A DNA stretch of 64,000 nt from positions 1 through 64,000 of IMG/VR virus record IMGVR_UViG_3300045971_000528, one strand, 5' to 3'. A program made the position numbers and the translations under genes. The stretch comes from a virus. The notes below the pieces were generated by a model that had not been told where the DNA came from, ran no database searches, and saw only the letters and a list, made by a program, of their open reading frames with translations. This document shows, piece after piece, positions 132 through 18,363 of the stretch. Positions within the stretch are counted from its first letter, which is position 1, and each line of letters opens with the position of its first letter.

Positions 132-668
132 TCATTGTGATCTACGGCGCAGATGTAGCCCAATCAAACCGATCGCCAGAAGTGCAAGACTTGAAGGCTC
201 TGGAACAGGAGACACATCAACCAGAAAAGTATTTATCTCTGACCAAGTCGCCACTTGCCCAGTCCAAGAATGAGAGACTGGAAGGGTCGCGAATGTGACG
301 AATCTTCCAATGACCGGGTCGAATGTTCTGATGTTCTCAGATGCATTGAACACTGAAGCCGCGACAACTTCAGCGCCATCAACAAGGATGTTTGCGACAT
401 TCCCACTGCTGACGCTACCATTCCAGTAGGCCAAAACTCCAGAGATTTCGACATTAGCGCCCATGTCGAAAGTGATTGGTCCTAAACCGTTGAACGTCCA
501 CTTAGTGTTGTCGTTGCCGTCGATCGCAAAAACTGCTGGACCTGTGTACCAAGTATCGGCCCATTGAGTTTCACCAGCAGCCGAAACAGCCACAGGCGAA
601 ACCCAAGTTGGCCCCGCGTGGACCGTGAAAGCCAACGCGGCGGAAAATGCAAAAGCGAATCTCTTCAT
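132..668 (-). CDS. PEP-CTERM sorting-domain protein with discoidin/F5-8-like domain
   Basis: Signal peptide MKRFAFAFSAALAFTVHA; AIDGNDNTKW discoidin-like motif; C-terminal VPEPSSLALLAIGLIGLHLRRR. Confidence 0.85.
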   Translation of the reverse strand: MKRFAFAFSAALAFTVHAGPTWVSPVAVSAAGETQWADTWYTGPAVFAIDGNDNTKWTFNGLGPITFDMGANVEISGVLAYWNGSVSSGNVANILVDGAEVVAASVFNASENIRTFDPVIGRFVTFATLPVSHSWTGQVATWSEINTFLVDVSPVPEPSSLALLAIGLIGLHLRRRSQ

Positions 669-776
669 GTTATCCCTTAGTCGATAATGAATCATATCAC
701 AACAACGTTTTGAACGCACTGCGATTTACAGGTTGCACTTACGCATAAATAACTCATTATCAGTGATGGAGCAATC

Positions 777-1445
777 ATGAAGTGTTTTCACGGATGTGGC
801 CAACAGGCGTTGTTCTTTGCGCCAACGCTGTCCCGACGAGAGAAGGCGGACGTGTGGGTCTGTGCTCGCAGAGCAGCGCAATGCCCAACCAAGATGGGGC
901 AGATCAGACAGAAGCGGTTAGACACGCTGGCTGAAGTCGATGCTGATGGTGTTGATGGCTTCACGCGCAATGCACTCGCAGTGTCTGCCTCACGTCGCCA
1001 AGAGGACGGTACTTTCAACGGTGCAGAGAAGATGGTTCAAACCAAGCGATCAACGAAAGACGCCGATGGACGTGACATCTACCAACAGACCGCCATCAAG
1101 ACCGCCATCACTCGCTTTGGTCAATACGCTGGACTGGAGGGCATGCCCGAGTTCGAGATCTACCGCTACCACGTCAAGCGCATCACCGAACAACAACCCC
1201 TGCATCTTCTTCCTAAGCATGAGAAAAGGGCCGCCTACGGTAAAGCAGACGACCCCCATCAGGTAGATCACAAATTCTCAGTGGTGCAGGGCTTCTTGAA
1301 GAACATTCCGCCCTACATCATTGGTCACATCTCCAACTTGGAGATGCTTCCATCACGCCTGAACAACTCGAAAGGGTCGTCCTGTTCGATCACGGAAGAA
1401 GCTCTGCTCGAGGGCTTCTTCTCATCGATCAGAGTTGCGCAATGA
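777..1445 (+). CDS. Putative freestanding HNH-type endonuclease
   Basis: C-terminal HQVDHKFS...GHISNLEMLPSRLNNSKG motif; N-terminal Cys cluster; TAAATA late-promoter motif at 746-751; only convincing plus-strand gene in the window. Confidence 0.6.
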   Translation: MKCFHGCGQQALFFAPTLSRREKADVWVCARRAAQCPTKMGQIRQKRLDTLAEVDADGVDGFTRNALAVSASRRQEDGTFNGAEKMVQTKRSTKDADGRDIYQQTAIKTAITRFGQYAGLEGMPEFEIYRYHVKRITEQQPLHLLPKHEKRAAYGKADDPHQVDHKFSVVQGFLKNIPPYIIGHISNLEMLPSRLNNSKGSSCSITEEALLEGFFSSIRVAQ

Positions 1446-3036
1446 GTTGCGGAGCGGCAGAGTCGAAACCTGCGATGTCCAACATTCCGGCATCCTTCGG
1501 ATCCGCGATGGTGAACTCGCTCACAGACGTTCCAATGACAATCGACTTCGCCATCGGGTTGAGCTTCTTCCGGTAATCGCGAAGCGCTTCCACCGGCTGG
1601 ATCGAACCGGCCCAAGTTTCGTTGTCGGTCAGAACAACGAACTTGTCCACCTTCATGCCGTGCTGGGAAGCATGCATCATCGGCAGAGCGCAGTCAGTGC
1701 CGCCCCACGAGAAGCGCTGCATCACCTTCAGAACCGCGTCGAGACGCATGTTCGGCGTGATCTTCAGCTCGCCCATCTTGGTGTTGAAACCACCGATCCA
1801 GTAGTTCGGCTGGTTCTTCACGACCGCGAGGGCCATGACACCAGCAACTTCTGCAGCGGTCAGGTTCGGGGAACCGTTGACGTGTGCACCAAACATGGAA
1901 CCAGAGCAGTCCACACCCACCAGGTACGAGTCATCCGTCTTCTCTTGCGTGGCAAAGGAAGCGTAGAACGCATCGTTGATGGCGTCGAGAACGCGTTGAT
2001 CAGCCTTCCAGGTCAGGGAACCCTTCTCGCCGTGACCAACGCTGTATTGCTTGAACGCCTGCAGGAGCGTGATCGGGTGGACACGCTGCTTGCGCAGGGA
2101 CTCCACGTCGCTTAGCTTCGCGATGACGTTCTTCGTACCAGCCGACAGCGGTGCGATCACGCCGTGGGCCGTCAGGGCACCCAGCTTGCGGATCGTTGCC
2201 GTCAGGCCCATGTTCACCACGAGGGCGGACAGGACATCGGCATCCTTCAGGAACTGGGTCGGAACCATTTCCCACGTGAGGTTGGAGTTGCCCTCAACCA
2301 GACGCAGAACGGTCTTCTTGTCCTCGGCACGCTTCAGGTACTCGAAGTCGACCAGCAGCTGCGGCACAGCTGCGCCTTCCGGCAGTTCACCCTTGACCGC
2401 GTAGCGGAACAGGTTCGACTGCACTTCAGACGACGGCTTCACGTGCGCCAGACGGAGCACGTCACGGTGAGCCCAGCCGTCACGCGACTGGTACTTCAGA
2501 AGCTGGAGAGCCAGCTTGTCCATTTCCTTCGACGTGTACCACTTGGCAACGCCACGCTTTGCAGCCGCGTTCCACTTGCCCATCGAGTCGAGGATCGACA
2601 CGAACATGAACAGCCAGGTGCCAGTACGAGCGATGCGTGGCAGCGCGTCGTAGGCAGCTTGCTTGGTCTCGTCGTTGCCGAACACCGCTGCGAGAGCGAT
2701 GGCCACAACAGCCGGGTCGTTCTTCGGCGCACGGCCAGCGAGCGAGTACTCGAGGGCACGGTTCACCACACGGACACCGTCAGCGGCAATGCACGCCTTC
2801 ACGGTGTTGAACGACATCTTGGTCGTGTCCTTCTTGCCGACGTAGTAGCCGGCCGACTCGGAACCCAGCGTCAGGAAGCGGTCGAGCACGCCCCACTGGT
2901 CGAGGGTGAAGGTGACACCACCTGCGTTGTTGGTCTTCATGTCAGCTTCGCGGCCCGGGATGGCACGGGACTGTGGCGTAACCGACTTGGTCGGCGACAG
3001 GGAAGCTGCGTGGGAAGTGTAGGTGTTTGCTGCCAT
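1429..3036 (-). CDS. rsr: Ro60/Rsr TROVE-domain RNA-binding protein with C-terminal vWA domain
   Basis: NNAGG..F..D....LDRFLTLGSE, KYQSRDGWAHRDVLRLAH, VDCSGSM (MIDAS), GGTDCALP, TDNETW, IADPKDAGMLDIAGFDSAAP; SD AAGGAG upstream. Confidence 0.95.
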   Translation of the reverse strand: MAANTYTSHAASLSPTKSVTPQSRAIPGREADMKTNNAGGVTFTLDQWGVLDRFLTLGSESAGYYVGKKDTTKMSFNTVKACIAADGVRVVNRALEYSLAGRAPKNDPAVVAIALAAVFGNDETKQAAYDALPRIARTGTWLFMFVSILDSMGKWNAAAKRGVAKWYTSKEMDKLALQLLKYQSRDGWAHRDVLRLAHVKPSSEVQSNLFRYAVKGELPEGAAVPQLLVDFEYLKRAEDKKTVLRLVEGNSNLTWEMVPTQFLKDADVLSALVVNMGLTATIRKLGALTAHGVIAPLSAGTKNVIAKLSDVESLRKQRVHPITLLQAFKQYSVGHGEKGSLTWKADQRVLDAINDAFYASFATQEKTDDSYLVGVDCSGSMFGAHVNGSPNLTAAEVAGVMALAVVKNQPNYWIGGFNTKMGELKITPNMRLDAVLKVMQRFSWGGTDCALPMMHASQHGMKVDKFVVLTDNETWAGSIQPVEALRDYRKKLNPMAKSIVIGTSVSEFTIADPKDAGMLDIAGFDSAAPQLIAQL

Positions 3037-3089
3037 GATGTTTCTCTCCTTTGGAATGACGGCTATCACTTGATAGCGAATGATCAAAA

Positions 3090-3386
3090 TCAACCTGTAC
3101 GACGAAAAGCGGGATCGGAGATTTCGGTCGCTACGTCGCAATGACGCGCTTCCTACACCCGTCTTGAGGCGACGAGTAACCTACCGGATTACGACCCCGG
3201 AAACATCACGCAGATTCGACGCGTAATCCCTACCTCCATGATTCGACATGGACACCTACTTCTGTGGTTCGGCACAGATACCTACTCTGCTTGTCCGGCT
3301 TGCTTTCCAACTTGCGATGGGGCACAGAGCTTCGAAGTTACAGTAGTTCGATTGTGGTAACCAATACCAACGGTCGAACAGGTTGA
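3090..3386 (-). ncRNA. Long (~300 nt) Y-RNA-like RNA with internal hairpin/GUAGG array
   Basis: 5' UCAACCUGUUCGAC-C-G pairs with 3' CGUCGUACAGGUUGA; UUGGUUACC motif; lies directly upstream of rsr. Confidence 0.7.
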
Positions 3387-3416
3387 AGTTGATTGAAATA
3401 CTGAGGGCTGACGACT

Positions 3417-3571
3417 GAATGAAAGGTCTGACAAAGAGTGGGACGGAGATTGAAGACATCACCAGGTCTTGCATTCTGTTTGTACCCTTTCGGGTAGCGA
3501 TTTGCTTCCGTTGGCTTTCGCCGTCAGTAGCTCCATGAGTAGATAACCATCGCCGATCGGTCAGATCATTC
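3417..3571 (-). ncRNA. Y RNA (Ro60-binding)
   Basis: 5' UCUGAC-C-GA pairs with 3' UUGUCAGA (bulged-C helix), followed by UGGUUAUC; adjacent to rsr. Confidence 0.8.
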
Positions 3572-3617: not shown

Positions 3618-3646
3618 ATTTTATACGGTTTTCGCGCTGGGTGCAA
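3618..3646 (-). promoter_or_regulatory. Sigma70-type promoter for the Y RNA-rsr unit
   Basis: TTGCAC-N17-TAAAAT on the minus strand. Confidence 0.65.
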
Positions 3647-3654
3647 CTTTTTCA

Positions 3655-4191
3655 TCAACTTTGCGCAGGTTGAATGCGCTTGTAGATCATGCCGTTCAGG
3701 TGGGCGTAACCCTCTTCATCAGGAATGATGACATGATTAGCCAAGTCGCGCTCAGCAATCCTATCATACACAAACCGGGTGACGGTATCCCCGGCTTTCA
3801 GGTCGATCCAATCGAACATGTCCTGATCCATGTAGCGCCCGAATGGCGGGTCTGAGAAGTCGACGAGCTCGGCCTCTTGAACACCAGCAGCGTCGAGCAA
3901 CTTCTGATGATCGTCCAGCGACATCGTCTCTCCCATTCGGGCAGACAGTGCCTCGCGGCCCTTCTCACGCAACCCGTCTCTGATCTCGTTGTAATCCCAT
4001 GCCACTGCACAGATCAAAGCTGCCGTGTAGAGCGAGCCGTAGTAGGTGACAACTGACAACCCAATGTAGGCAAGCCACCAGGGCCATGAACAATGGTAGA
4101 GAACGAGACTTCCACCAATCACAGTGCAAGCACCCCAAATGGATCGAGTGCGTTCAACTACATTGCCAACCTTGTCATCGAATGTTGTCAT
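3655..4191 (-). CDS. Hypothetical membrane protein
   Basis: Two N-terminal hydrophobic segments; tight packing with neighbours. Confidence 0.7.
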   Translation of the reverse strand: MTTFDDKVGNVVERTRSIWGACTVIGGSLVLYHCSWPWWLAYIGLSVVTYYGSLYTAALICAVAWDYNEIRDGLREKGREALSARMGETMSLDDHQKLLDAAGVQEAELVDFSDPPFGRYMDQDMFDWIDLKAGDTVTRFVYDRIAERDLANHVIIPDEEGYAHLNGMIYKRIQPAQS

Positions 4192-4192
4192 G

Positions 4193-4918
4193 TCAGTGGT
4201 TCTTCAGTGCGTGTATGAAGCGTCTCTTGGACTGAACCAAGTAGGTCTTTGCAACAACTTCGATGCTGGCTCGCATCGACTTGGCGATACGCTCGTCAGG
4301 TGTCGAGTGTGGATCCGTCTTGGTAGTGAACGGGTGGGGTGCTTGACCACGCCCTGCATGATGGTCATCATTGCCTGCGTAGGTGCGAATGTTACCATTG
4401 GCAAGGATCTTGCGGCGCACACGAACCGTCTTGCGCTTCTCGTCACCAATTGGTGGCTCGTAGTCACCAATGAAGTTGAGCGTGCCGTTCTTAAGGTCAC
4501 CTGCCGTAGACTTGTCCTCGAAGCCGATGGACAGAAGATGCTTGTACTCGGGAGATGAACGAACCTTGGCAATTGCTGGCGCGATGTGGTCCCTCGTAGC
4601 ACCCATCAGATTGAGCCACTCGCCAACGGTGCCCATGATGGCCGCTGGACGGTAGTCGCCACCCTTCGATGACGACTTTGGGCGGTAGTGGGCATGGTCG
4701 TAGGTCGGGCGTTGCATCTCAGGCTTGCCATCAGGACCCTTGACCTTCTCATCCTTGTACTTGAAGTGCTTGCCGGTTGCCACGAACCTGCCTTGGTTGA
4801 CATCGAAGTCTTTCTCGACTGTCGCCCCAGGGGTGTCCGCAGACACGTACACCTTCTTGCGCTCAATCTTTTGGCGGGGCTTGTTGTAGCGGATCTCGAA
4901 CAGTTCAGAGGTCTTCAT
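4193..4918 (-). CDS. Hypothetical protein with CTS-like N-terminus (MKTSELFE)
   Basis: 241 aa ORF; TAAATA motif upstream near 4946. Confidence 0.75.
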   Translation of the reverse strand: MKTSELFEIRYNKPRQKIERKKVYVSADTPGATVEKDFDVNQGRFVATGKHFKYKDEKVKGPDGKPEMQRPTYDHAHYRPKSSSKGGDYRPAAIMGTVGEWLNLMGATRDHIAPAIAKVRSSPEYKHLLSIGFEDKSTAGDLKNGTLNFIGDYEPPIGDEKRKTVRVRRKILANGNIRTYAGNDDHHAGRGQAPHPFTTKTDPHSTPDERIAKSMRASIEVVAKTYLVQSKRRFIHALKNH

Positions 4919-4970
4919 CGGTAGGTCTCAATAGGATCGATTGGTTATTTACGCCAATCGACCCCTCTGC

Positions 4971-5546
4971 CTACTGCAGGTGCTGCCAGACCCTGCTGTG
5001 CTCAGGGATGTAGGCCTTCAGGAACTCCATCTGGCAGGTCAGGATGTTCCGGTTCTCCAGCACGAGAGCCTCAGCCTTGTTGGGGGCGTACGGCACGTAC
5101 AGGAGCTTCATGCCTACTTCGTCGAGCAGGTGTGCGTCCTTGCGGTGGTTGCAGTCCTCGCAGCAGGTCACCACGTTGGTCCACTTGTCCAGGCCACCAC
5201 GCGAACGCGGGATGACGTGGTCACGCGTCAGGTGGATGTGCTTGAAGATCTTGCCGCAGTAAGCGCACATGTAGTGGTCACGTCGGAACAGGTCCGGGTT
5301 CGTCAGTGCAGGCGGCTTGTTCATGCGAGCCTTGGCCCCCTCACCCTTGACAGCAATGATTGGAGCAGTGACGATGCGTGACTGTGTACCTGTGATGCGG
5401 TTCTCACCGCCACGGAACATCACGTCGCCTTCACCCTCGCCCAGCTGCCATGCAACCAGGTTCTTGGCGTGGTAGACGATTGCGTCTTGGTGGCTGATCC
5501 AGTCCTGCGGAGTTCCGCCGACGTCCAGCTTAAGGATTCTGCTCAT
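4971..5546 (-). CDS. HNH endonuclease (McrA-like)
   Basis: RDHYMCAYCG, TRDHVIPRSRGG, WTNVVTCCEDCNHRK. Confidence 0.9.
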   Translation of the reverse strand: MSRILKLDVGGTPQDWISHQDAIVYHAKNLVAWQLGEGEGDVMFRGGENRITGTQSRIVTAPIIAVKGEGAKARMNKPPALTNPDLFRRDHYMCAYCGKIFKHIHLTRDHVIPRSRGGLDKWTNVVTCCEDCNHRKDAHLLDEVGMKLLYVPYAPNKAEALVLENRNILTCQMEFLKAYIPEHSRVWQHLQ

Positions 5547-5995
5547 GATCGTATCTGCCTTTCTAGTTCTTCTACAAACTTTACGTGGTCCTTCCGGCCC
5601 TTGGTTCTGAATTCTTCCAGCGACATCCACAGAGTGTACTCTGTCTCGTCGCACCATTTGTCGAAGTCGTGCCGATCCTGGACACCGACACCAAACACCG
5701 TGAGGTGATAGGCGCCTGAGTACAACTCGATCCGACCCTCGAATACCAACCGAAGGTCACCGCGTGCGTTGCGCATCTTGAAGCCGAGTTCTTCTTCGGC
5801 CTCGCGAACTGCTGCTTCGAGCGGTGTCTCACCTTCTTCGATCTTTCCCTTGCTGATCATCGGCCGTGGGCCACCGTACTTGGGGTCTGACGAGATCATC
5901 ATGAGGTACAGCGGAACCCCTTGATCATCCCGCAGCCAGGGAATCAACCCTGCCCGAGCGCGCTTTTCGTAACCTGATTCGTCTGATGAGTGCAT
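5543..5995 (-). CDS. NUDIX hydrolase
   Basis: Nudix box KGKIEEGETPLEAAVREAEEELG; start placed at MHSSD directly after a -10 element. Confidence 0.9.
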   Translation of the reverse strand: MHSSDESGYEKRARAGLIPWLRDDQGVPLYLMMISSDPKYGGPRPMISKGKIEEGETPLEAAVREAEEELGFKMRNARGDLRLVFEGRIELYSGAYHLTVFGVGVQDRHDFDKWCDETEYTLWMSLEEFRTKGRKDHVKFVEELERQIRS

Positions 5996-6000
5996 GATGC

Positions 6001-6044
6001 ATTTTAACCTATTGGCGGCCTGTTGTACATTCCCGACCTGTAAC
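6001..6044 (-). promoter_or_regulatory. GTTACA-box promoter
   Basis: GTTACA-N9-TGTACA-N17-TAAAAT; same architecture recurs at four other loci. Confidence 0.7.
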
Positions 6045-6048
6045 AACA

Positions 6049-6080
6049 ACGGGGTCCTGTCTAGTTGAACAGGACCCCGT
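6049..6080 (-). terminator. Intrinsic terminator
   Basis: ACGGGGTCCTGT/ACAGGACCCCGT stem followed by TGTTGTT on the minus strand. Confidence 0.7.
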
Positions 6081-6113
6081 GCCAAGGTGTTGAACTGTTC
6101 AGTGTGTGTGTCG

Positions 6114-6251
6114 TCAGATGAGTTCGAAGACCCAACGGAAGCATGCCACATCAAGGATGAAGCATGAGTATTCAATGTCTGCGTCTGGGTCAGCCTGGAT
6201 GTACTCCAGCCCAAAGGCAAGACCCATGATGAGATCGAATGAAACCTGCAT
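6114..6251 (-). CDS. Small hypothetical protein (45 aa)
   Basis: MQVSFDLIMGLAFGLEY...; fills the gap between neighbours. Confidence 0.55.
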   Translation of the reverse strand: MQVSFDLIMGLAFGLEYIQADPDADIEYSCFILDVACFRWVFELI

Positions 6252-8087: not shown

Positions 8088-8516
8088 TTATGGAGCCTTA
8101 GGTTGAAGCACGCCAACCTTGTGGAGGGCGGCGAGACGGCGCATCATGGCTAGAGCCTGAACGCCTGTCATGTCGGCGGGCAGGATGGTTGTCGGTAGAT
8201 GATTGGCTAGCATTGGGCTTTCACGCATCGTCTCATCAGAAACATGCATCATGTCCCACTCAGCAAATTCGCGAGCCTTGACATCAATGTAACGGAGGAT
8301 CATTGGATCCTTGTGGCGCCCGTCTCTGACGATCTTGTTGTAGAGACGATTGACCGTAGCACGCTCACCTTCCATCAACTGGATGTAGAGCTGAGGGCTA
8401 GTCACGATCATGCCGCTCACGCCGATGGATCGATTGCGAGCCTGATTGCTTTCGAAGAACGAAGCATTAGGAACTGGTCCAACCGGTATGGAGATGTAGA
8501 CAACCTGGATGACCAT
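8088..8516 (-). CDS. Short BLUF blue-light sensor protein
   Basis: VYIS (Tyr), ARNRSIGVSGMI, YIQLMEG (Gln), V..LY.KI.RD.RH, FAEWDM (Trp/Met). Confidence 0.9.
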   Translation of the reverse strand: MVIQVVYISIPVGPVPNASFFESNQARNRSIGVSGMIVTSPQLYIQLMEGERATVNRLYNKIVRDGRHKDPMILRYIDVKAREFAEWDMMHVSDETMRESPMLANHLPTTILPADMTGVQALAMMRRLAALHKVGVLQPKAP

Positions 8517-10934: not shown

Positions 10935-12134
10935 TTAGTTCAGCTTCAAGATCGTCAGGTGCGCAGAGACCGAGCGAGTTCCACCTGCAAGAGGCGTGAT
11001 CGTCAGCGCTGTGGAATTCCCGGCTGGGTTCCGCACGGTCAGAATAGAGTTGATCACCGAGGTGGTGACTAGCGCGACTCCCTCAATCTGACTGGTGCCG
11101 GTTGCCCGACCAACAACTGTGTACGCCAAGTCGTTGCCGTTCAGTGTCAGAATGAGCTGGCCTGGTTCGGTGATGCTGACTTGGAACTGAACCAAGTACG
11201 TCCCGATCGTCGTCAGGCTGAATGAGCTTGCCGATAGACGAGCGATCGTTGAGCCTGAAGTAGGGCCGTTCTGCGGAAATGAAACGTCAGTGCCAACTCC
11301 AACTGTCGACGCGTTGTTCGGCGGCATCAGCGCGTAGAAGTCAGCGAATGCGATTACGCCATGCTCACTATCACCGCCAGCGGGACCCTGTGGACCTGTT
11401 GCGCCTTGAGGCCCAGCTGGACCTGTCGCTCCCTGTGGACCCGCAGGACCTGTTGCGCCAGTTGTACCTTGTGGGCCCGTTGCACCTGTTAGACCGATCG
11501 GTCCAGCAGGGCCAGTTGCCCCGTTCGTTCCGTTCGTTCCATTCTGACCTGCTGGACCTTGTGGACCCGTTGCTCCATCAGCACCTGCTGGACCTTGTGG
11601 ACCCGTTGCTCCATCAGCACCTGCTGGACCAGTTAGTCCTTGGGGTCCAGTGAGACCTTGAGGACCAATAGGACCGGCTGGACCTTGAGCTCCATTGGTT
11701 CCAGGCGAGCCAGCAGGACCTTGAGTTCCATCACGCCCGTCTCTACCATCACGCCCGTCGCGGCCATCTGTACCAGAAGGACCTTGTGGTCCAGCAGGAC
11801 CTTGTGGACCAACAGGTCCAGGTGGGCCAGGTGGGCAGATAGGTGGGCAGGGGTATACAGGAAAGCAACCACCCGGCGGCTTCCTCGGGAAGCTTTCATC
11901 GTCGTTACAATCGACTGGCGGCTTCGGCGGGCATGGGGGTTGGCCACCGCCGCCACCTACATTGCTCTCACTTGGAGCGTTCGTGATAGGTGTAAACCCC
12001 GATGAGATGATCGGTGCAGTGATGCCTGGAATGTTTGTGTCTGGGCCTGATGTAGTTTCAACAGGCGATCGAGCCTTCGCACGCGTTAGAACGTCGTTCA
12101 GCTCAATGAGGTATCGTTCAGTAGTTGCGAGCAT
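10935..12134 (-). CDS. Collagen-like protein with BclA-type C-terminal domain
   Basis: About 50 Gly-X-Y triplets (GPQGPAGA..), Pro/Cys-rich neck, C-terminal beta domain ([28 protein letters not shown]). Confidence 0.85.
11548..11619. repeat. 36-bp tandem duplication within the collagen repeats
   Basis: cctgctggaccttgtggacccgttgctccatcagca present twice in tandem. Confidence 0.8.
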
Positions 12135-13939: not shown

Positions 13940-14665
13940 TTATGCGAGCATCTTCTGCACTGCAGTCAGTGCATACTTCAAGAGAGTGTCGTAGGCCTGA
14001 GCGCACTTGAATGCTGCACTCGTCGAGTGGCACTGCTCGCACTGGTCTACAGTCACTGGGTGACCAGCAGTGTAGGCAGCCTTGCCCTTGGCAATCACGT
14101 TGTCGTGGCAGGTGACACAACCAGAAGTGACGCCAGCGTGGATCTGGTCATGCGACACGGTGTCCCATGCAGTGATCGCGAAGCTTGAACCATTTGCTGG
14201 AGTCGTGTGGCAGGTGCCGCACTCAGCAGTTGTTGGAACGTGGTTCGTTGGCTTTGTCAGAGCGTTGTACACCGATGCGTACGTACCACCGTGGCACTGC
14301 GAGCAAGCGATGTTGCTGACTGTTGAGTGGTTCATCGACCAAGTCGTGGTGAACGACGAGGTGAAGTGGCAGTTGTTGCACTCGAGCAGACCCGTTGGGA
14401 TGTGGTTTGCTGAGCGGGCGACGGTGACTCGTGCTGGGTCACCATTGTGGCATGCTACACAGTTCTTTGGTGTTCCGAGGAACACGCCAGCCTTGTGGCA
14501 TGATGCGCACGTGTTACACTTCCCAGTCGAGAGGTGTGCTCCATCGAGCGTAAAGTTCGGGTGCGATTGCTCGTACATCGAACATTCAGCCGCATGGGCG
14601 CCAGTGGAAGCGAACATGCTTCCAAGGAGGACCACCGCGGCTGCAAGTAGTTTTTTCAAGGACAT
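13940..14665 (-). CDS. Secreted multiheme c-type cytochrome (7 CxxCH)
   Basis: Signal peptide; CASCH, CVACH, CNNCH, CSQCH, CGTCH, CVTCH, CEQCH; H(I/V)PT repeats. Confidence 0.9.
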   Translation of the reverse strand: MSLKKLLAAAVVLLGSMFASTGAHAAECSMYEQSHPNFTLDGAHLSTGKCNTCASCHKAGVFLGTPKNCVACHNGDPARVTVARSANHIPTGLLECNNCHFTSSFTTTWSMNHSTVSNIACSQCHGGTYASVYNALTKPTNHVPTTAECGTCHTTPANGSSFAITAWDTVSHDQIHAGVTSGCVTCHDNVIAKGKAAYTAGHPVTVDQCEQCHSTSAAFKCAQAYDTLLKYALTAVQKMLA

Positions 14666-14724
14666 CAGAATCTCCGTTACAAAAAGACGTCGTATTTATT
14701 GCCGGCCGCTGCTAGATACGCATT

Positions 14725-15405
14725 TTAGTTGTCCCAATTCCTGTACATCGTGCCGCGATTTCCGAGAGGCCGGTGGCACCCCACCTGTGAGCAATCGAGC
14801 GGAACGGGATTGCGTTGGAAATGCGTAAGCGACATCAACTCTCCATGACCGAGCCAAGTCTGTCCTGACAAGTGGCAGCCCTTGCACCAGCCTGCGCCGG
14901 ATCCAACGGTTCCATTGTGGTTCATCGTGACAGTAGTCCACACTGTGGTAGACGTGTGGCATGCCTTACAGTCGAGTGTTGAACCACCTAGAAGCTGCGT
15001 CGCTTCAGGGATGTGTTTGATTGGTTCGCCGAGAGCGCCAGCCCCGGTGTAGCTGCCATTGTGGCAGGTCTTGCACAACATCGTCGTCACCTTCGTGTGG
15101 CTGAATGTCGATGGCGTGAATGCGACTGTCGAATGGCAAGAGGCACAGTCCATCGTGCCGGTTGGAATGTGTGAAGCTGATCGATACACGGTGTTGCGTG
15201 CAGGATCTCCATTGTGGCAGTCGATGCAGTTCCTTGGTGTTCCGTTGAAGATCCGATTGATGTGACAAGATCCGCAGGTGGTGCACTTTCCGGTAGAGAG
15301 GTGGGCACCCGAGAGAATGTATAGTGGATGCGACTGTTCGTAGAGTGTGCACTCAGCGCCAAAAGCCGGCATGCAGAACATCAGGAGTAGAAGTATGAGT
15401 CTCAT
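14725..15405 (-). CDS. Secreted multiheme c-type cytochrome (6 CxxCH + CX4CH)
   Basis: Signal peptide; CGSCH, CIDCH, CASCH, CKTCH, CKACH, CKGCH, CSQVGCH; paralogue of 13940. Confidence 0.9.
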   Translation of the reverse strand: MRLILLLLMFCMPAFGAECTLYEQSHPLYILSGAHLSTGKCTTCGSCHINRIFNGTPRNCIDCHNGDPARNTVYRSASHIPTGTMDCASCHSTVAFTPSTFSHTKVTTMLCKTCHNGSYTGAGALGEPIKHIPEATQLLGGSTLDCKACHTSTTVWTTVTMNHNGTVGSGAGWCKGCHLSGQTWLGHGELMSLTHFQRNPVPLDCSQVGCHRPLGNRGTMYRNWDN

Positions 15406-18238: not shown

Positions 18239-18363
18239 TGGTGGTGATGGAAGGAATCGAACCTCCCCTGGCTTTGGATGATAAAGATAACCAATCGCGG
18301 CCGGTTGTTTTGCAACTAAAAATGCAATCGATGTTTCCGTGCTGTCCACTACACTACATCACC
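18239..18363 (-). ncRNA. tRNA-shaped RNA with a Y-RNA-like module in place of the anticodon arm
   Basis: Acceptor GGUGAUG/CAUCACC-ACCA, normal D and T arms, ~70-nt insert with CAACCGG..UUGGUUAUC. Confidence 0.7.

What the first reader, a model, noticed from the sequence alone, without database searches (positions are those of the whole stretch)
3090..3386. Giant Y-like RNA carrying a tandem array of hairpins each followed by GUAGG
Seen inside the closing helix (minus strand), in order: CUCUG..CAGA-GUAGG; UCUGUG[CCGAAC]CACAGA-A-GUAGG; UCCAUG[UCGAAU]CAUGGA-G-GUAGG; AUUACGCG[UCGAAUC]UGCGUGAU; CCGG[..]CCG-GUAGG; ACUCGUC[..]GACGGGU-GUAGG; then GUAGC. Stems differ in sequence but keep pairing, while YCGAAY loops and GUAGG linkers recur. 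Inference: a multivalent protein sponge or scaffold (CsrB-like logic, or decoy sites for a sequence-specific RNase or toxin) tethered to Ro60.
Basis: partly seen in the sequence, partly recalled or inferred. Interest (0 to 1): 0.75.

Follow-up and report, generated by a model that had tools for sequence, protein, structure and literature searches.

The report
Giant phage Y RNA, repeated hairpins
Just upstream of its Ro60 gene, an uncultured jumbo phage encodes a roughly 310-base partner RNA (a Y RNA) whose cargo is a row of hairpins, three of them copies of one conserved hairpin-plus-GUAG element; it is a new, unusually large variant of a known RNA class, and what the repeated element binds is unknown.

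Summary
On the minus strand (about 3394-3083), a long closing helix encloses seven hairpins. Five GUAGG lie within 134 nt (0.34 expected; 0 of 1000 shuffles reach 5), each directly 3' of a stem.

The RNA sits 45 nt upstream of a Ro60 (rsr) gene. It carries the same Y-RNA "handle" as five other RNAs in this window. Related phage contigs have a homologous RNA, and their helices covary strongly.

The repeat array itself is not family-wide. The family shares one invariant cargo element, a 7-9 bp stem followed by G-UAG-R. A covariance model of that element, built without the window, hits once per relative. It hits three times in the window (26.2, 26.2 and 15.4 bits) and twice in the closest relative, L045. 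Between the window and L045, the stems of the extra hairpins have turned over completely but still pair, while the CGAAU loops and GUAGG linkers are unchanged.

Best reading: a Ro60-tethered scaffold RNA in which one binding element has been multiplied. Its partner is unknown.

It is not a YrlA, tRNA, 5S or CsrB-type RNA by the tests run here. No expression or binding data could be obtained. The scan held no look-alike of this sequence, but it has noted other phage Y RNAs.

The parts
3083..3394 (-). Whole large Y RNA (Y2), about 312 nt from closing helix to closing helix
   Evidence: Fold. Homologous RNA upstream of rsr in related phage contigs. Covariation.
3378..3394 (-). Closing helix, 5' strand
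   Evidence: Pairs with 3102-3083. In alignment A2, 7 of its 12 pairs show compensatory changes (helix 1).
3083..3102 (-). Closing helix, 3' strand, preceded by a U-rich tract at 3109-3103
3356..3377 (-). Handle, 5' half: CCG motif, short loop, helix strand ending in GG, then UUACC
   Evidence: The same signature occurs at six minus-strand sites in the window and twice per locus in relatives. It resembles the ET08 YrlA/YrlB 5' ends.
3110..3118 (-). Handle helix, 3' strand (CCGAUCCCG)
   Evidence: Pairs with 3369-3361. It is 98% paired across 8 RNAs (helix 2). Compensatory variants: AUUGG/CCAAU in L008 and AUCGA/UCGAU in L009.
3285..3329 (-). H1: long irregular hairpin with a conserved core capped by a four-base loop
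   Evidence: helices 3-5. The core is 33 of 35 identical to L045 and served as the search motif.
3253..3283 (-). Unit Ha: 6-bp stem, loop CCGAAC, then A-GUAGG; a paralogue of the family H5 unit
   Evidence: Model R1, built without the window, scores it 26.2 bits (E 5e-4), equal to the true orthologue.
3227..3257 (-). Unit Hb: 6-bp stem, loop UCGAAU, then G-GUAGG; the extra hairpin absent from most relatives
   Evidence: The window shows a 21-column insertion against 7 relatives. R1 scores it 15.4 bits when scored alone. L045 has the same unit with a different but complementary stem, scoring 29.4 bits.
3201..3227 (-). Hc: 8-bp stem, loop UCGAAUC, then GUUU (family position H3)
   Evidence: The stems are only 2 of 8 identical to L045 on each strand yet still pair; the loop motif and the GUUU linker are kept.
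3178..3200 (-). Hd: 4-bp stem with a 9-nt loop, then UAGGUU (family position H4)
   Evidence: The hairpin sequence is identical in L018. There is a compensated C-G to U-A change against L045. R1 scores it only 5.4 bits, so it is not an H5-type unit.
3150..3181 (-). Unit He (family H5): 7-8 bp stem followed by invariant G-UAG-G; the one universal cargo element
   Evidence: R1 scores it 26.2 bits. There is one such hit per relative, always upstream of rsr. Invariant flanks around a covarying stem are shown.
3119..3149 (-). H6 (contains GUAGC) and the conserved 3' block ending at the handle
   Evidence: H6 is 19 of 21 identical to L045. The 3' block is conserved in clade A.
3424..3570 (-). Y1: a second, smaller Y-like RNA directly upstream, with the same handle
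3618..3646 (-). Putative promoter for Y1-Y2-rsr (TTGCAC, 17 nt, TAAAAT)
   Evidence: Read. A TATAAT-like box sits at the equivalent place in relatives. The consensus scan did not flag it.
1429..3036 (-). rsr, the Ro60 orthologue (535 aa)
   Evidence: Pfam TROVE (5e-24) and Ro60 vWA (6e-53).

Best explanation
This is a phage-encoded Y RNA, the noncoding partner of the phage's own Ro60 protein. It belongs to a family found so far only in uncultured, mostly jumbo phages.

It has two parts. The first is a handle: a closing helix, a CCG motif, a short helix ending in GG, and UUAYC. The handle is shared with at least five other RNAs of this phage and presumably docks on Ro60. The second is a very large cargo made of a row of hairpins.

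The family's only invariant cargo element is a 7-9 bp stem of free sequence followed by G-UAG-R. In this phage and its closest relative, that element has been multiplied, giving three recognisable copies in the window. Selection has held the loops (YCGAAU) and linkers (GUAGG) fixed while the stems drifted with compensation.

The most likely working model is a Ro60-tethered scaffold that presents several copies of one sequence-specific binding site to a host or phage factor. By precedent the factor could be PNPase or a tRNA-binding enzyme. More copies would raise the number of sites offered, or the binding avidity.

Shown here: the structure, the conservation, the handle, the reiteration, and the constraint on loops and linkers.
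Inferred: Ro60 binding, existence as a discrete RNA, and everything about the partner.
For: - **Gene context.** rsr is a clear Ro60. The RNA ends 45 nt upstream of it on the same strand.
- **Handle.** It is shared with five other minus-strand RNAs in the window, occurs twice per locus in relatives, and resembles the ET08 YrlA/YrlB 5' ends.
- **Covariation across 8 RNAs.** 89.6% of cells are paired versus 77.0% in shuffles (0 of 500 reach it). 28 pairs have double changes versus 12.4 (0 of 500), and slid registers give 12 or fewer.
- **Closest relative L045.** Same seven-hairpin layout. Hb and Hc stems have turned over but still pair, CGAAU loops are kept, and GUAGG is kept after Ha, Hb and He.
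- **Model R1** (16 relatives, window excluded). Its only strong hits in 64 kb on both strands are He and Ha at 26.2 bits each; the next best is 16.5. Hb scores 15.4 bits alone. L045 has two hits, and every other relative has one. New loci have one hit each, 100-240 nt upstream of rsr.
- **Motif counts.** GUAGG 5 versus 0.34 expected; CGAA 6 versus 1.95. The window has the most GUAGG among 47 rsr upstream regions.
- **Literature.** Y RNAs tether Ro60 to effectors, and phage Y RNAs are known (PMC4201824). phiLo Ro60-Yrl-PNPase complexes form, CGAA is a Ro60-binding determinant, and an RNA with two such elements gives higher-order complexes (PMC12135203).
Against: - No expression, end-mapping or binding data exist.
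- The array is seen in only two contigs. Most relatives manage with one unit, so extra copies could be dispensable.
- The canonical GNCGAA(N)G Ro60 motif is reduced to CCG in this handle.
- Rfam YrlA and YrlB do not match.
- Hd does not score as a unit.
- Two of the five GUAGG are not conserved in L045.
- No candidate partner emerged from the neighbouring genes.
Confidence: 0.6

Rival explanations
1. It is not a free RNA but the structured 5' leader of the rsr mRNA, acting in cis, for example in Ro60 autoregulation or mRNA stabilisation.
For: There is no terminator-like site between the RNA and rsr, and the gap is only 45 nt. A conserved, covarying hairpin sits between the RNA and the ribosome-binding site.
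Against: In the closest relative, the RNA ends about 750 nt upstream of rsr with an insertion in between, yet it is fully conserved. It has the same handle as RNAs elsewhere in the tRNA array that are not next to rsr. M. smegmatis YrlA and YrlB are likewise co-transcribed upstream of rsr and then processed (PMC4201824).
Confidence: 0.12
2. The hairpins mimic tRNA arms (anticodon-arm-like or T-arm-like loops with GAA, and an acceptor-like stem plus U8-A9-like UA). The array would then be a decoy or sponge for a tRNA-directed enzyme or defence nuclease.
For: YrlA-type Y RNAs are permuted tRNA mimics with a closed acceptor-like hairpin, a conserved UA and then the D arm. The order H4, H5, UA, H6, handle is topologically the same. 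L014's H3-H4 aligns to this phage's tRNA-Phe positions 27-65 (P=0.017, one of six tests). The phage has 27 tRNAs, and unchecked notes report RNA-repair and tRNA-maturation genes.
Against: The tRNA and YrlA covariance models find nothing, even at E up to 10 on 317 nt, although YrlA is detected in ET08. R1 does not hit the YrlA acceptor-UA-D junction of ET08 or L028. Loop lengths vary from 4 to 9 nt. A 6-nt linker separates H4 from H5, unlike a T arm stacked on an acceptor stem.
Confidence: 0.13
3. The CGAA-bearing hairpins are extra Ro60 binding sites, so one RNA collects several Ro60 rings into a higher-order particle.
For: In phage phiLo, each base of CGAA contributes 3-4 fold to Ro60 affinity, and the Yrl RNA with two CGAA hairpins forms higher-order complexes. 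CGAA is enriched in the window, L014 and L020.
Against: In this phage's own handles, only CCG is conserved and the following two bases vary, so CGAA is not its handle motif. Here CGAA sits in hairpin loops, not in a bulged terminal helix. Several family members have 0-2 CGAA.
Confidence: 0.08
4. The extra units are a neutral, recent local duplication of a structural hairpin, with no function of their own.
For: Only two contigs have more than one unit. Cargo hairpin number and sequence vary widely in the family.
Against: Between the window and L045, the stems of Hb and Hc changed at most positions yet stayed paired, while loops and linkers stayed fixed and the flanking RNA is nearly identical. 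That is the signature of constraint, not decay.
Confidence: 0.07

Closest known systems
Bacterial and mycobacteriophage YrlA/YrlB Y RNAs (Chen et al. 2014, PMC4201824; Rfam RF02553, RF02565)
   Same: Encoded just upstream of rsr on the same strand, often two in tandem. The termini pair into a stem. The 5' strand carries a CG-containing motif followed by GGUUAYC-like sequence (ET08). The cargo has a hairpin followed by UA and another stem.
   Different: About 310 nt instead of about 80-130. There are no recognisable T or D arms. The Rfam models do not match. The handle motif is reduced to CCG. The cargo is six or seven hairpins with a reiterated unit.
Thermus phage phiLo Ro60 with Yrl1/Yrl2 (PMC12135203)
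   Same: Phage-encoded Ro60 with two upstream Y-like RNAs. CGAA motifs are present. There is a precedent for several proteins binding one RNA and for recruiting host PNPase.
   Different: The phiLo RNAs are small stem-bulge-stem molecules with CGAA in the bulge. Here CGAA lies in cargo hairpin loops, and the invariant element is stem plus GUAG.
Deinococcus radiodurans Yrn1 in the Ro60-Y RNA-PNPase (RYPER) machine
   Same: Two-module logic: a Ro60-binding stem plus an effector-binding module.
   Different: No sequence or structural match was tested beyond Rfam, and the effector here is unknown.
CsrB/RsmZ-type protein sponges
   Same: Tandem hairpins with a short recurring motif, giving possible multivalency.
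   Different: The CsrA motif is GGA presented in hairpin loops, with many (about 7-22) copies. Here GGA is not in the Ha-He loops, the recurring motifs are GUAGG in linkers and CGAA in loops, and there are only three to five units.

Membership tests
Y RNA in the broad sense (Ro60-associated noncoding RNA) | Encoded next to a Ro60/rsr gene on the same strand | tested here: met
   The RNA ends 45 nt upstream of a TROVE plus vWA protein. The same arrangement holds in relatives.
Y RNA in the broad sense (Ro60-associated noncoding RNA) | The 5' and 3' ends pair into a long stem that carries the Ro60 site | tested here: met
   The closing helix and handle helix both show covariation.
Y RNA in the broad sense (Ro60-associated noncoding RNA) | Conserved 5'-strand motif GNCGAA(N)G or GGUCCGA | tested here: inconclusive
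   Only (A)CCG is conserved in this RNA and its siblings. Some Y1 copies read ACCGAAAGG.
Y RNA in the broad sense (Ro60-associated noncoding RNA) | Physically bound by Ro60 | not testable with these tools
   Needs immunoprecipitation or a gel shift.
YrlA subfamily (Rfam RF02553) | Match to the family covariance model | tested here: not met
   No hit at E up to 10 in the window or E up to 1 in five relatives. The positive control ET08 is hit at 37.4 bits.
YrlA subfamily (Rfam RF02553) | Near-invariant T and D stem-loops forming a tRNA elbow | tested here: not met
   No GGUUCGAAUCC-type T arm or GCUCAGU..GAGC-type D arm is present. No tRNA model hit.
YrlA subfamily (Rfam RF02553) | Closed acceptor-like hairpin followed by UA and then a stem | tested here: inconclusive
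   The topology is the same (H5, UA, H6), but R1 does not detect the ET08 or L028 junction.
CsrB/RsmZ-type sponge | Multiple GGA motifs exposed in hairpin loops | tested here: not met
   The loops of Ha-He contain no GGA; it occurs in stems, linkers and the H1 apical loop.
rRNA look-alike cargo (5S, 16S, 23S) | Local similarity to rRNA above chance, consistent across the family | tested here: not met
   For 16S and 23S, z is 1.8 or less. For 5S, the best P is about 0.02 in 4 of 19 RNAs, at different 5S regions. No 5S model hit.

The most novel reading that the evidence does not exclude
The stem-plus-GUAG unit is a dedicated docking site for one host or phage protein, and phages tune the number of sites on the Ro60-tethered RNA by duplicating it. 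That would make this the first multivalent Y RNA: a Ro60-anchored scaffold or sponge that gathers several copies (or several subunits, such as a PNPase trimer) of its partner.
Probability: 0.25. Interest if true: 0.75.

Novelty: new variant of a known kind. Interest (0 to 1): 0.55.

Why it matters
Y RNAs are thought to work as tethers with one Ro60 site and one effector site, and for most bacterial and phage Y RNAs the effector is unknown.

This family offers a short, sharply defined and invariant candidate effector site: a stem plus G-UAG-R. It also offers a natural experiment in which that site has been multiplied while its stems were rewritten. That gives a clean bait for pull-downs and clear mutants to test.

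The Ro60 clade is abundant in metagenomes (5,980 proteins at E 1e-100 or better). The phage carries at least six handle-bearing RNAs with different cargos. Ro60 in these jumbo phages therefore looks like a hub served by interchangeable RNA adaptors, and this is the largest adaptor seen in this window.

Tried and rejected
- **rRNA look-alike cargo.** Smith-Waterman alignment of ten Y2 RNAs against E. coli 16S and 23S gave z of 1.8 or less. 5S gave P of about 0.02 for the window (a 17-nt match to loop C) and for 3 of 18 others, at inconsistent places. Rejected as unsupported.
- **tRNA or YrlA membership.** Rfam models were negative, with a working positive control. R1 does not find the YrlA acceptor-UA-D junction. 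Local similarity to the phage's 27 tRNAs was significant only for L014.
- **Tandem repeat by sequence.** TRF found nothing.
- **Coding potential.** No stop-free stretch is conserved in frame or position across six RNAs.
- **Presence in cellular genomes.** The H1-core motif gave 100 hits among 185,579 species genomes, none with the handle.
- **Annotated phages.** No blastn match. Ro60 is under 40% identical to all 368 phage records with a match.
- **Partner protein from synteny.** NUDIX, HNH, a 241-aa protein and a 178-aa protein are syntenic. The two unknown proteins match no Pfam or PHROG family, and the 178-aa one has no informative atlas neighbour.
- **Closer relatives.** Two subclade-specific motif scans returned only L045 plus coding false positives.
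- **Loop-to-linker pairing.** I considered CGAA pairing with GUAG as halves of a bulged-G or loop-E motif. By my own reasoning, the one-base connectors make a same-hairpin pseudoknot implausible. This was not tested.

Full report
**1. What is there**

Read on the minus strand, the stretch 3394-3083 begins and ends with complementary segments (3394-3378 and 3102-3083). RNAfold gives -109.9 kcal/mol (z = -2.7 against 100 shuffles) and recovers the closing helix and most hairpins.

GUAGG occurs five times on this strand between 3285 and 3152, at spacings of 26, 26, 49 and 28 nt. Each copy lies zero or one base after a stem. The other ~63.9 kb of the window hold only 18 minus-strand copies. In 1000 dinucleotide-preserving shuffles of the RNA the mean count is 0.34 and none reaches 5. 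CGAA occurs 6 times against 1.95 expected (P=0.004).

**2. Context**

The ORF that starts 45 nt downstream (3036-1429) is a Ro60 orthologue, with TROVE and Ro60-vWA domains. The window is a virus record with 27 tRNA genes. The Ro60 is under 40% identical to every Ro60 in 368 annotated phage records, and the RNA has no blastn match there. Relatives occur in IMG/VR and metagenome contigs of up to about 377 kb. The Ro60 clade numbers 5,980 proteins at E 1e-100 or better. The gene order NUDIX, HNH, a 241-aa protein, a fast-evolving 178-aa protein, then the RNAs and rsr is conserved.

**3. It is a Y RNA with a shared handle**

Every related locus has two tandem RNAs upstream of rsr. Each starts with a CCG motif followed 8-10 nt later by RRUUAYC. 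The window has six such sites on the minus strand: two here (3560 and 3373) and four in the tRNA array. These share a common architecture: terminal helix, CCG, helix ending in GG, UUAYC, cargo, complementary strand, U-run, terminal helix. A first-stage note on this genome describes the same handle.

The known mycobacteriophage ET08 YrlA and YrlB have a very similar 5' signature. Published work defines Y RNAs by this kind of terminal stem with a CG-containing 5' motif next to rsr (PMC4201824). I therefore file the RNA as a Y RNA in the broad sense. Ro60 binding itself is inferred, not shown.

**4. The structure is real**

An alignment of eight close RNAs gives an RNAalifold structure of 53 pairs. 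Counted explicitly:
- 89.6% of cells pair, versus 77.0% after shuffling partners (0 of 500 reach it).
- 28 pairs carry changes on both sides, versus 12.4 (0 of 500).
- Sliding the partners by 1-3 columns drops this to 12 or fewer.

The helices are the closing helix, the handle helix (98% paired), H1 with a conserved core, and hairpins H2 to H5. The window has a 21-column insertion relative to all seven others, which is one extra hairpin.

**5. What is and is not conserved**

The array of GUAGG is not a family trait. Across relatives the hairpin positions are kept, but linkers read AUAG(G) after H2, GUUG after H3 and AUAGG or AUGAG after H4. Only after H5 is there an invariant G-UAG-R. CGAA enrichment is significant only in the window, L014 and L020. 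Multiple GUAGG occur only in the window and L020. Among 47 distinct rsr upstream regions, the window has the most GUAGG (5; the next has 3).

A motif scan found the closest relative, L045, which lies on the same contig as L001. It has the same seven-hairpin layout. The pairwise alignment is gap-free through the array. It is nearly identical in the handle, the H1 core (33 of 35) and H6 (19 of 21). The stems of Hb (3/6 and 2/6 identical) and Hc (2/8 and 2/8) have been rewritten but still pair. The loops keep CGAAU. GUAGG is kept after Ha, Hb and He, and GUUU after Hc. The GUAGG after H1 and after Hd, and the final GUAGC, are not kept.

**6. The array is a reiteration of the universal unit**

I built a covariance model (R1) of the H5 stem plus GUAGR from 16 relatives, leaving the window out.
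- Searched with filters off over the whole window on both strands, its only strong hits are the orthologue He (3181-3150) and the unit Ha (3283-3253). Both score 26.2 bits (E about 5e-4); the next hit scores 16.5 bits.
- Hb shares linker bases with Ha, so it was masked by overlap. Scored alone it reaches 15.4 bits.
- Hd scores 5.4 bits and is not a unit.
- In relatives there is one hit per RNA. The exception is L045, where a second hairpin that was not in the training set scores 29.4 bits.
- In 44 further loci the model hits once per locus, always on the rsr strand and 100-240 nt upstream. These include Ro60 proteins down to about 58% identity.

So one sharply defined element is universal, and in the window's sublineage it has been multiplied.

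**7. What it is not**

- Rfam has no match at E up to 10, including YrlA, YrlB, tRNA and 5S. YrlA is detected in ET08 as a positive control.
- R1 does not detect the YrlA acceptor-UA-D junction. The resemblance of H5, UA and H6 to that junction is therefore topological only.
- rRNA similarity is at chance for 16S and 23S. For 5S it is weak and inconsistent.
- One alignment of L014's H3-H4 to the phage tRNA-Phe anticodon arm, variable loop and T arm (P=0.017, one of six tests) hints at a tRNA origin but is not corroborated.
- GGA is not presented in the Ha-He loops, so CsrB logic is not met.
- The H1-core motif with the handle is absent from 185,579 cellular species genomes.

**8. Mechanism**

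*Established elsewhere.* Y RNAs tether Ro60 to effectors such as PNPase. In phage phiLo, Ro60, Yrl RNAs and host PNPase form ternary and higher-order complexes, and CGAA contributes to Ro60 affinity (PMC12135203).

*Shown here.* There is a Ro60-type handle. There is a cargo whose only invariant part is a stem plus GUAG. Copies of that part are multiplied, with purifying selection on loops and linkers.

*Inferred.* The handle docks on the phage Ro60. The repeated units each bind the same sequence-specific partner, so the RNA acts as a multivalent scaffold, or alternatively as a sponge.

The cis-leader rival is weakened because L045's RNA lies about 750 nt from rsr yet is conserved. The partner's identity remains open, and the neighbouring unknown proteins gave no clue.

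**9. Limits**

No read data could be obtained and no further close contigs could be fetched. Expression, RNA ends, processing at GUAGG, and the breadth of the reiterated sublineage are therefore untested. The scan's index held no look-alike of this sequence, although other phage Y-like RNAs have been noted in other genomes.

Noticed in passing
window 3424-3570 (-): A second, smaller Y-like RNA (Y1) with the same handle lies between a putative promoter (3646-3618) and the large RNA. Relatives also carry two in tandem.
   Followed up: partly
window 23543, 22099, 18728, 18304 (-): Four more handle signatures (CCG..RRUUAYC) lie inside the tRNA array, so the phage has a repertoire of Y-like RNAs with different cargos. 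The one at 18304 is followed by a T-arm and an ACCA end.
   Followed up: partly
window 3062-3077 (-): A 7-bp hairpin between the Y RNA and the rsr ribosome-binding site is conserved, with different stems, in relatives; its flanks are kept as UUGCU ... AGCCG. It may be a processing or translational control site.
   Followed up: partly
window 3655-6220 (-): The gene order NUDIX hydrolase, HNH endonuclease, a 241-aa unknown and a fast-evolving 178-aa unknown, directly upstream of the Y RNAs, is conserved across many loci. The two unknowns match no Pfam or PHROG family.
   Followed up: partly
L001:2252-3000 (same contig as L045): In the closest relative, about 750 nt of extra, coding-looking sequence is inserted between the large Y RNA and rsr.
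   Followed up: no
L014:1139-1455: L014 carries a second copy of the handle's AGUUGGUUAC segment in the 3' part of its cargo, next to the handle's 3' strand. This may offer an alternative pairing. Its H3-H4 segment aligns to the window phage's tRNA-Phe positions 27-65 (P=0.017).
   Followed up: partly
window 3261-3277 (-) and L009:2850-2862: There are short matches to conserved 5S rRNA segments. The window's Ha matches loop C over 17 nt, and L009's H5 3' strand plus AGUAGG matches the loop E strand. Each has P of about 0.02, and the matches are not consistent across the family.
   Followed up: yes
window 132-719, 8088-8516, 10935-12134, 13940-15405 (-): The phage has unusual accessory genes: a PEP-CTERM protein with an F5/8 type C domain, a BLUF blue-light sensor, a collagen-repeat/BclA-like protein, and two multihaem c7-type cytochromes.
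   Followed up: no
whole window: GTAGG is over-represented overall (100 against 54 expected), mostly on the plus strand (77 copies). This is probably a coding or composition bias unrelated to the RNA.
   Followed up: no
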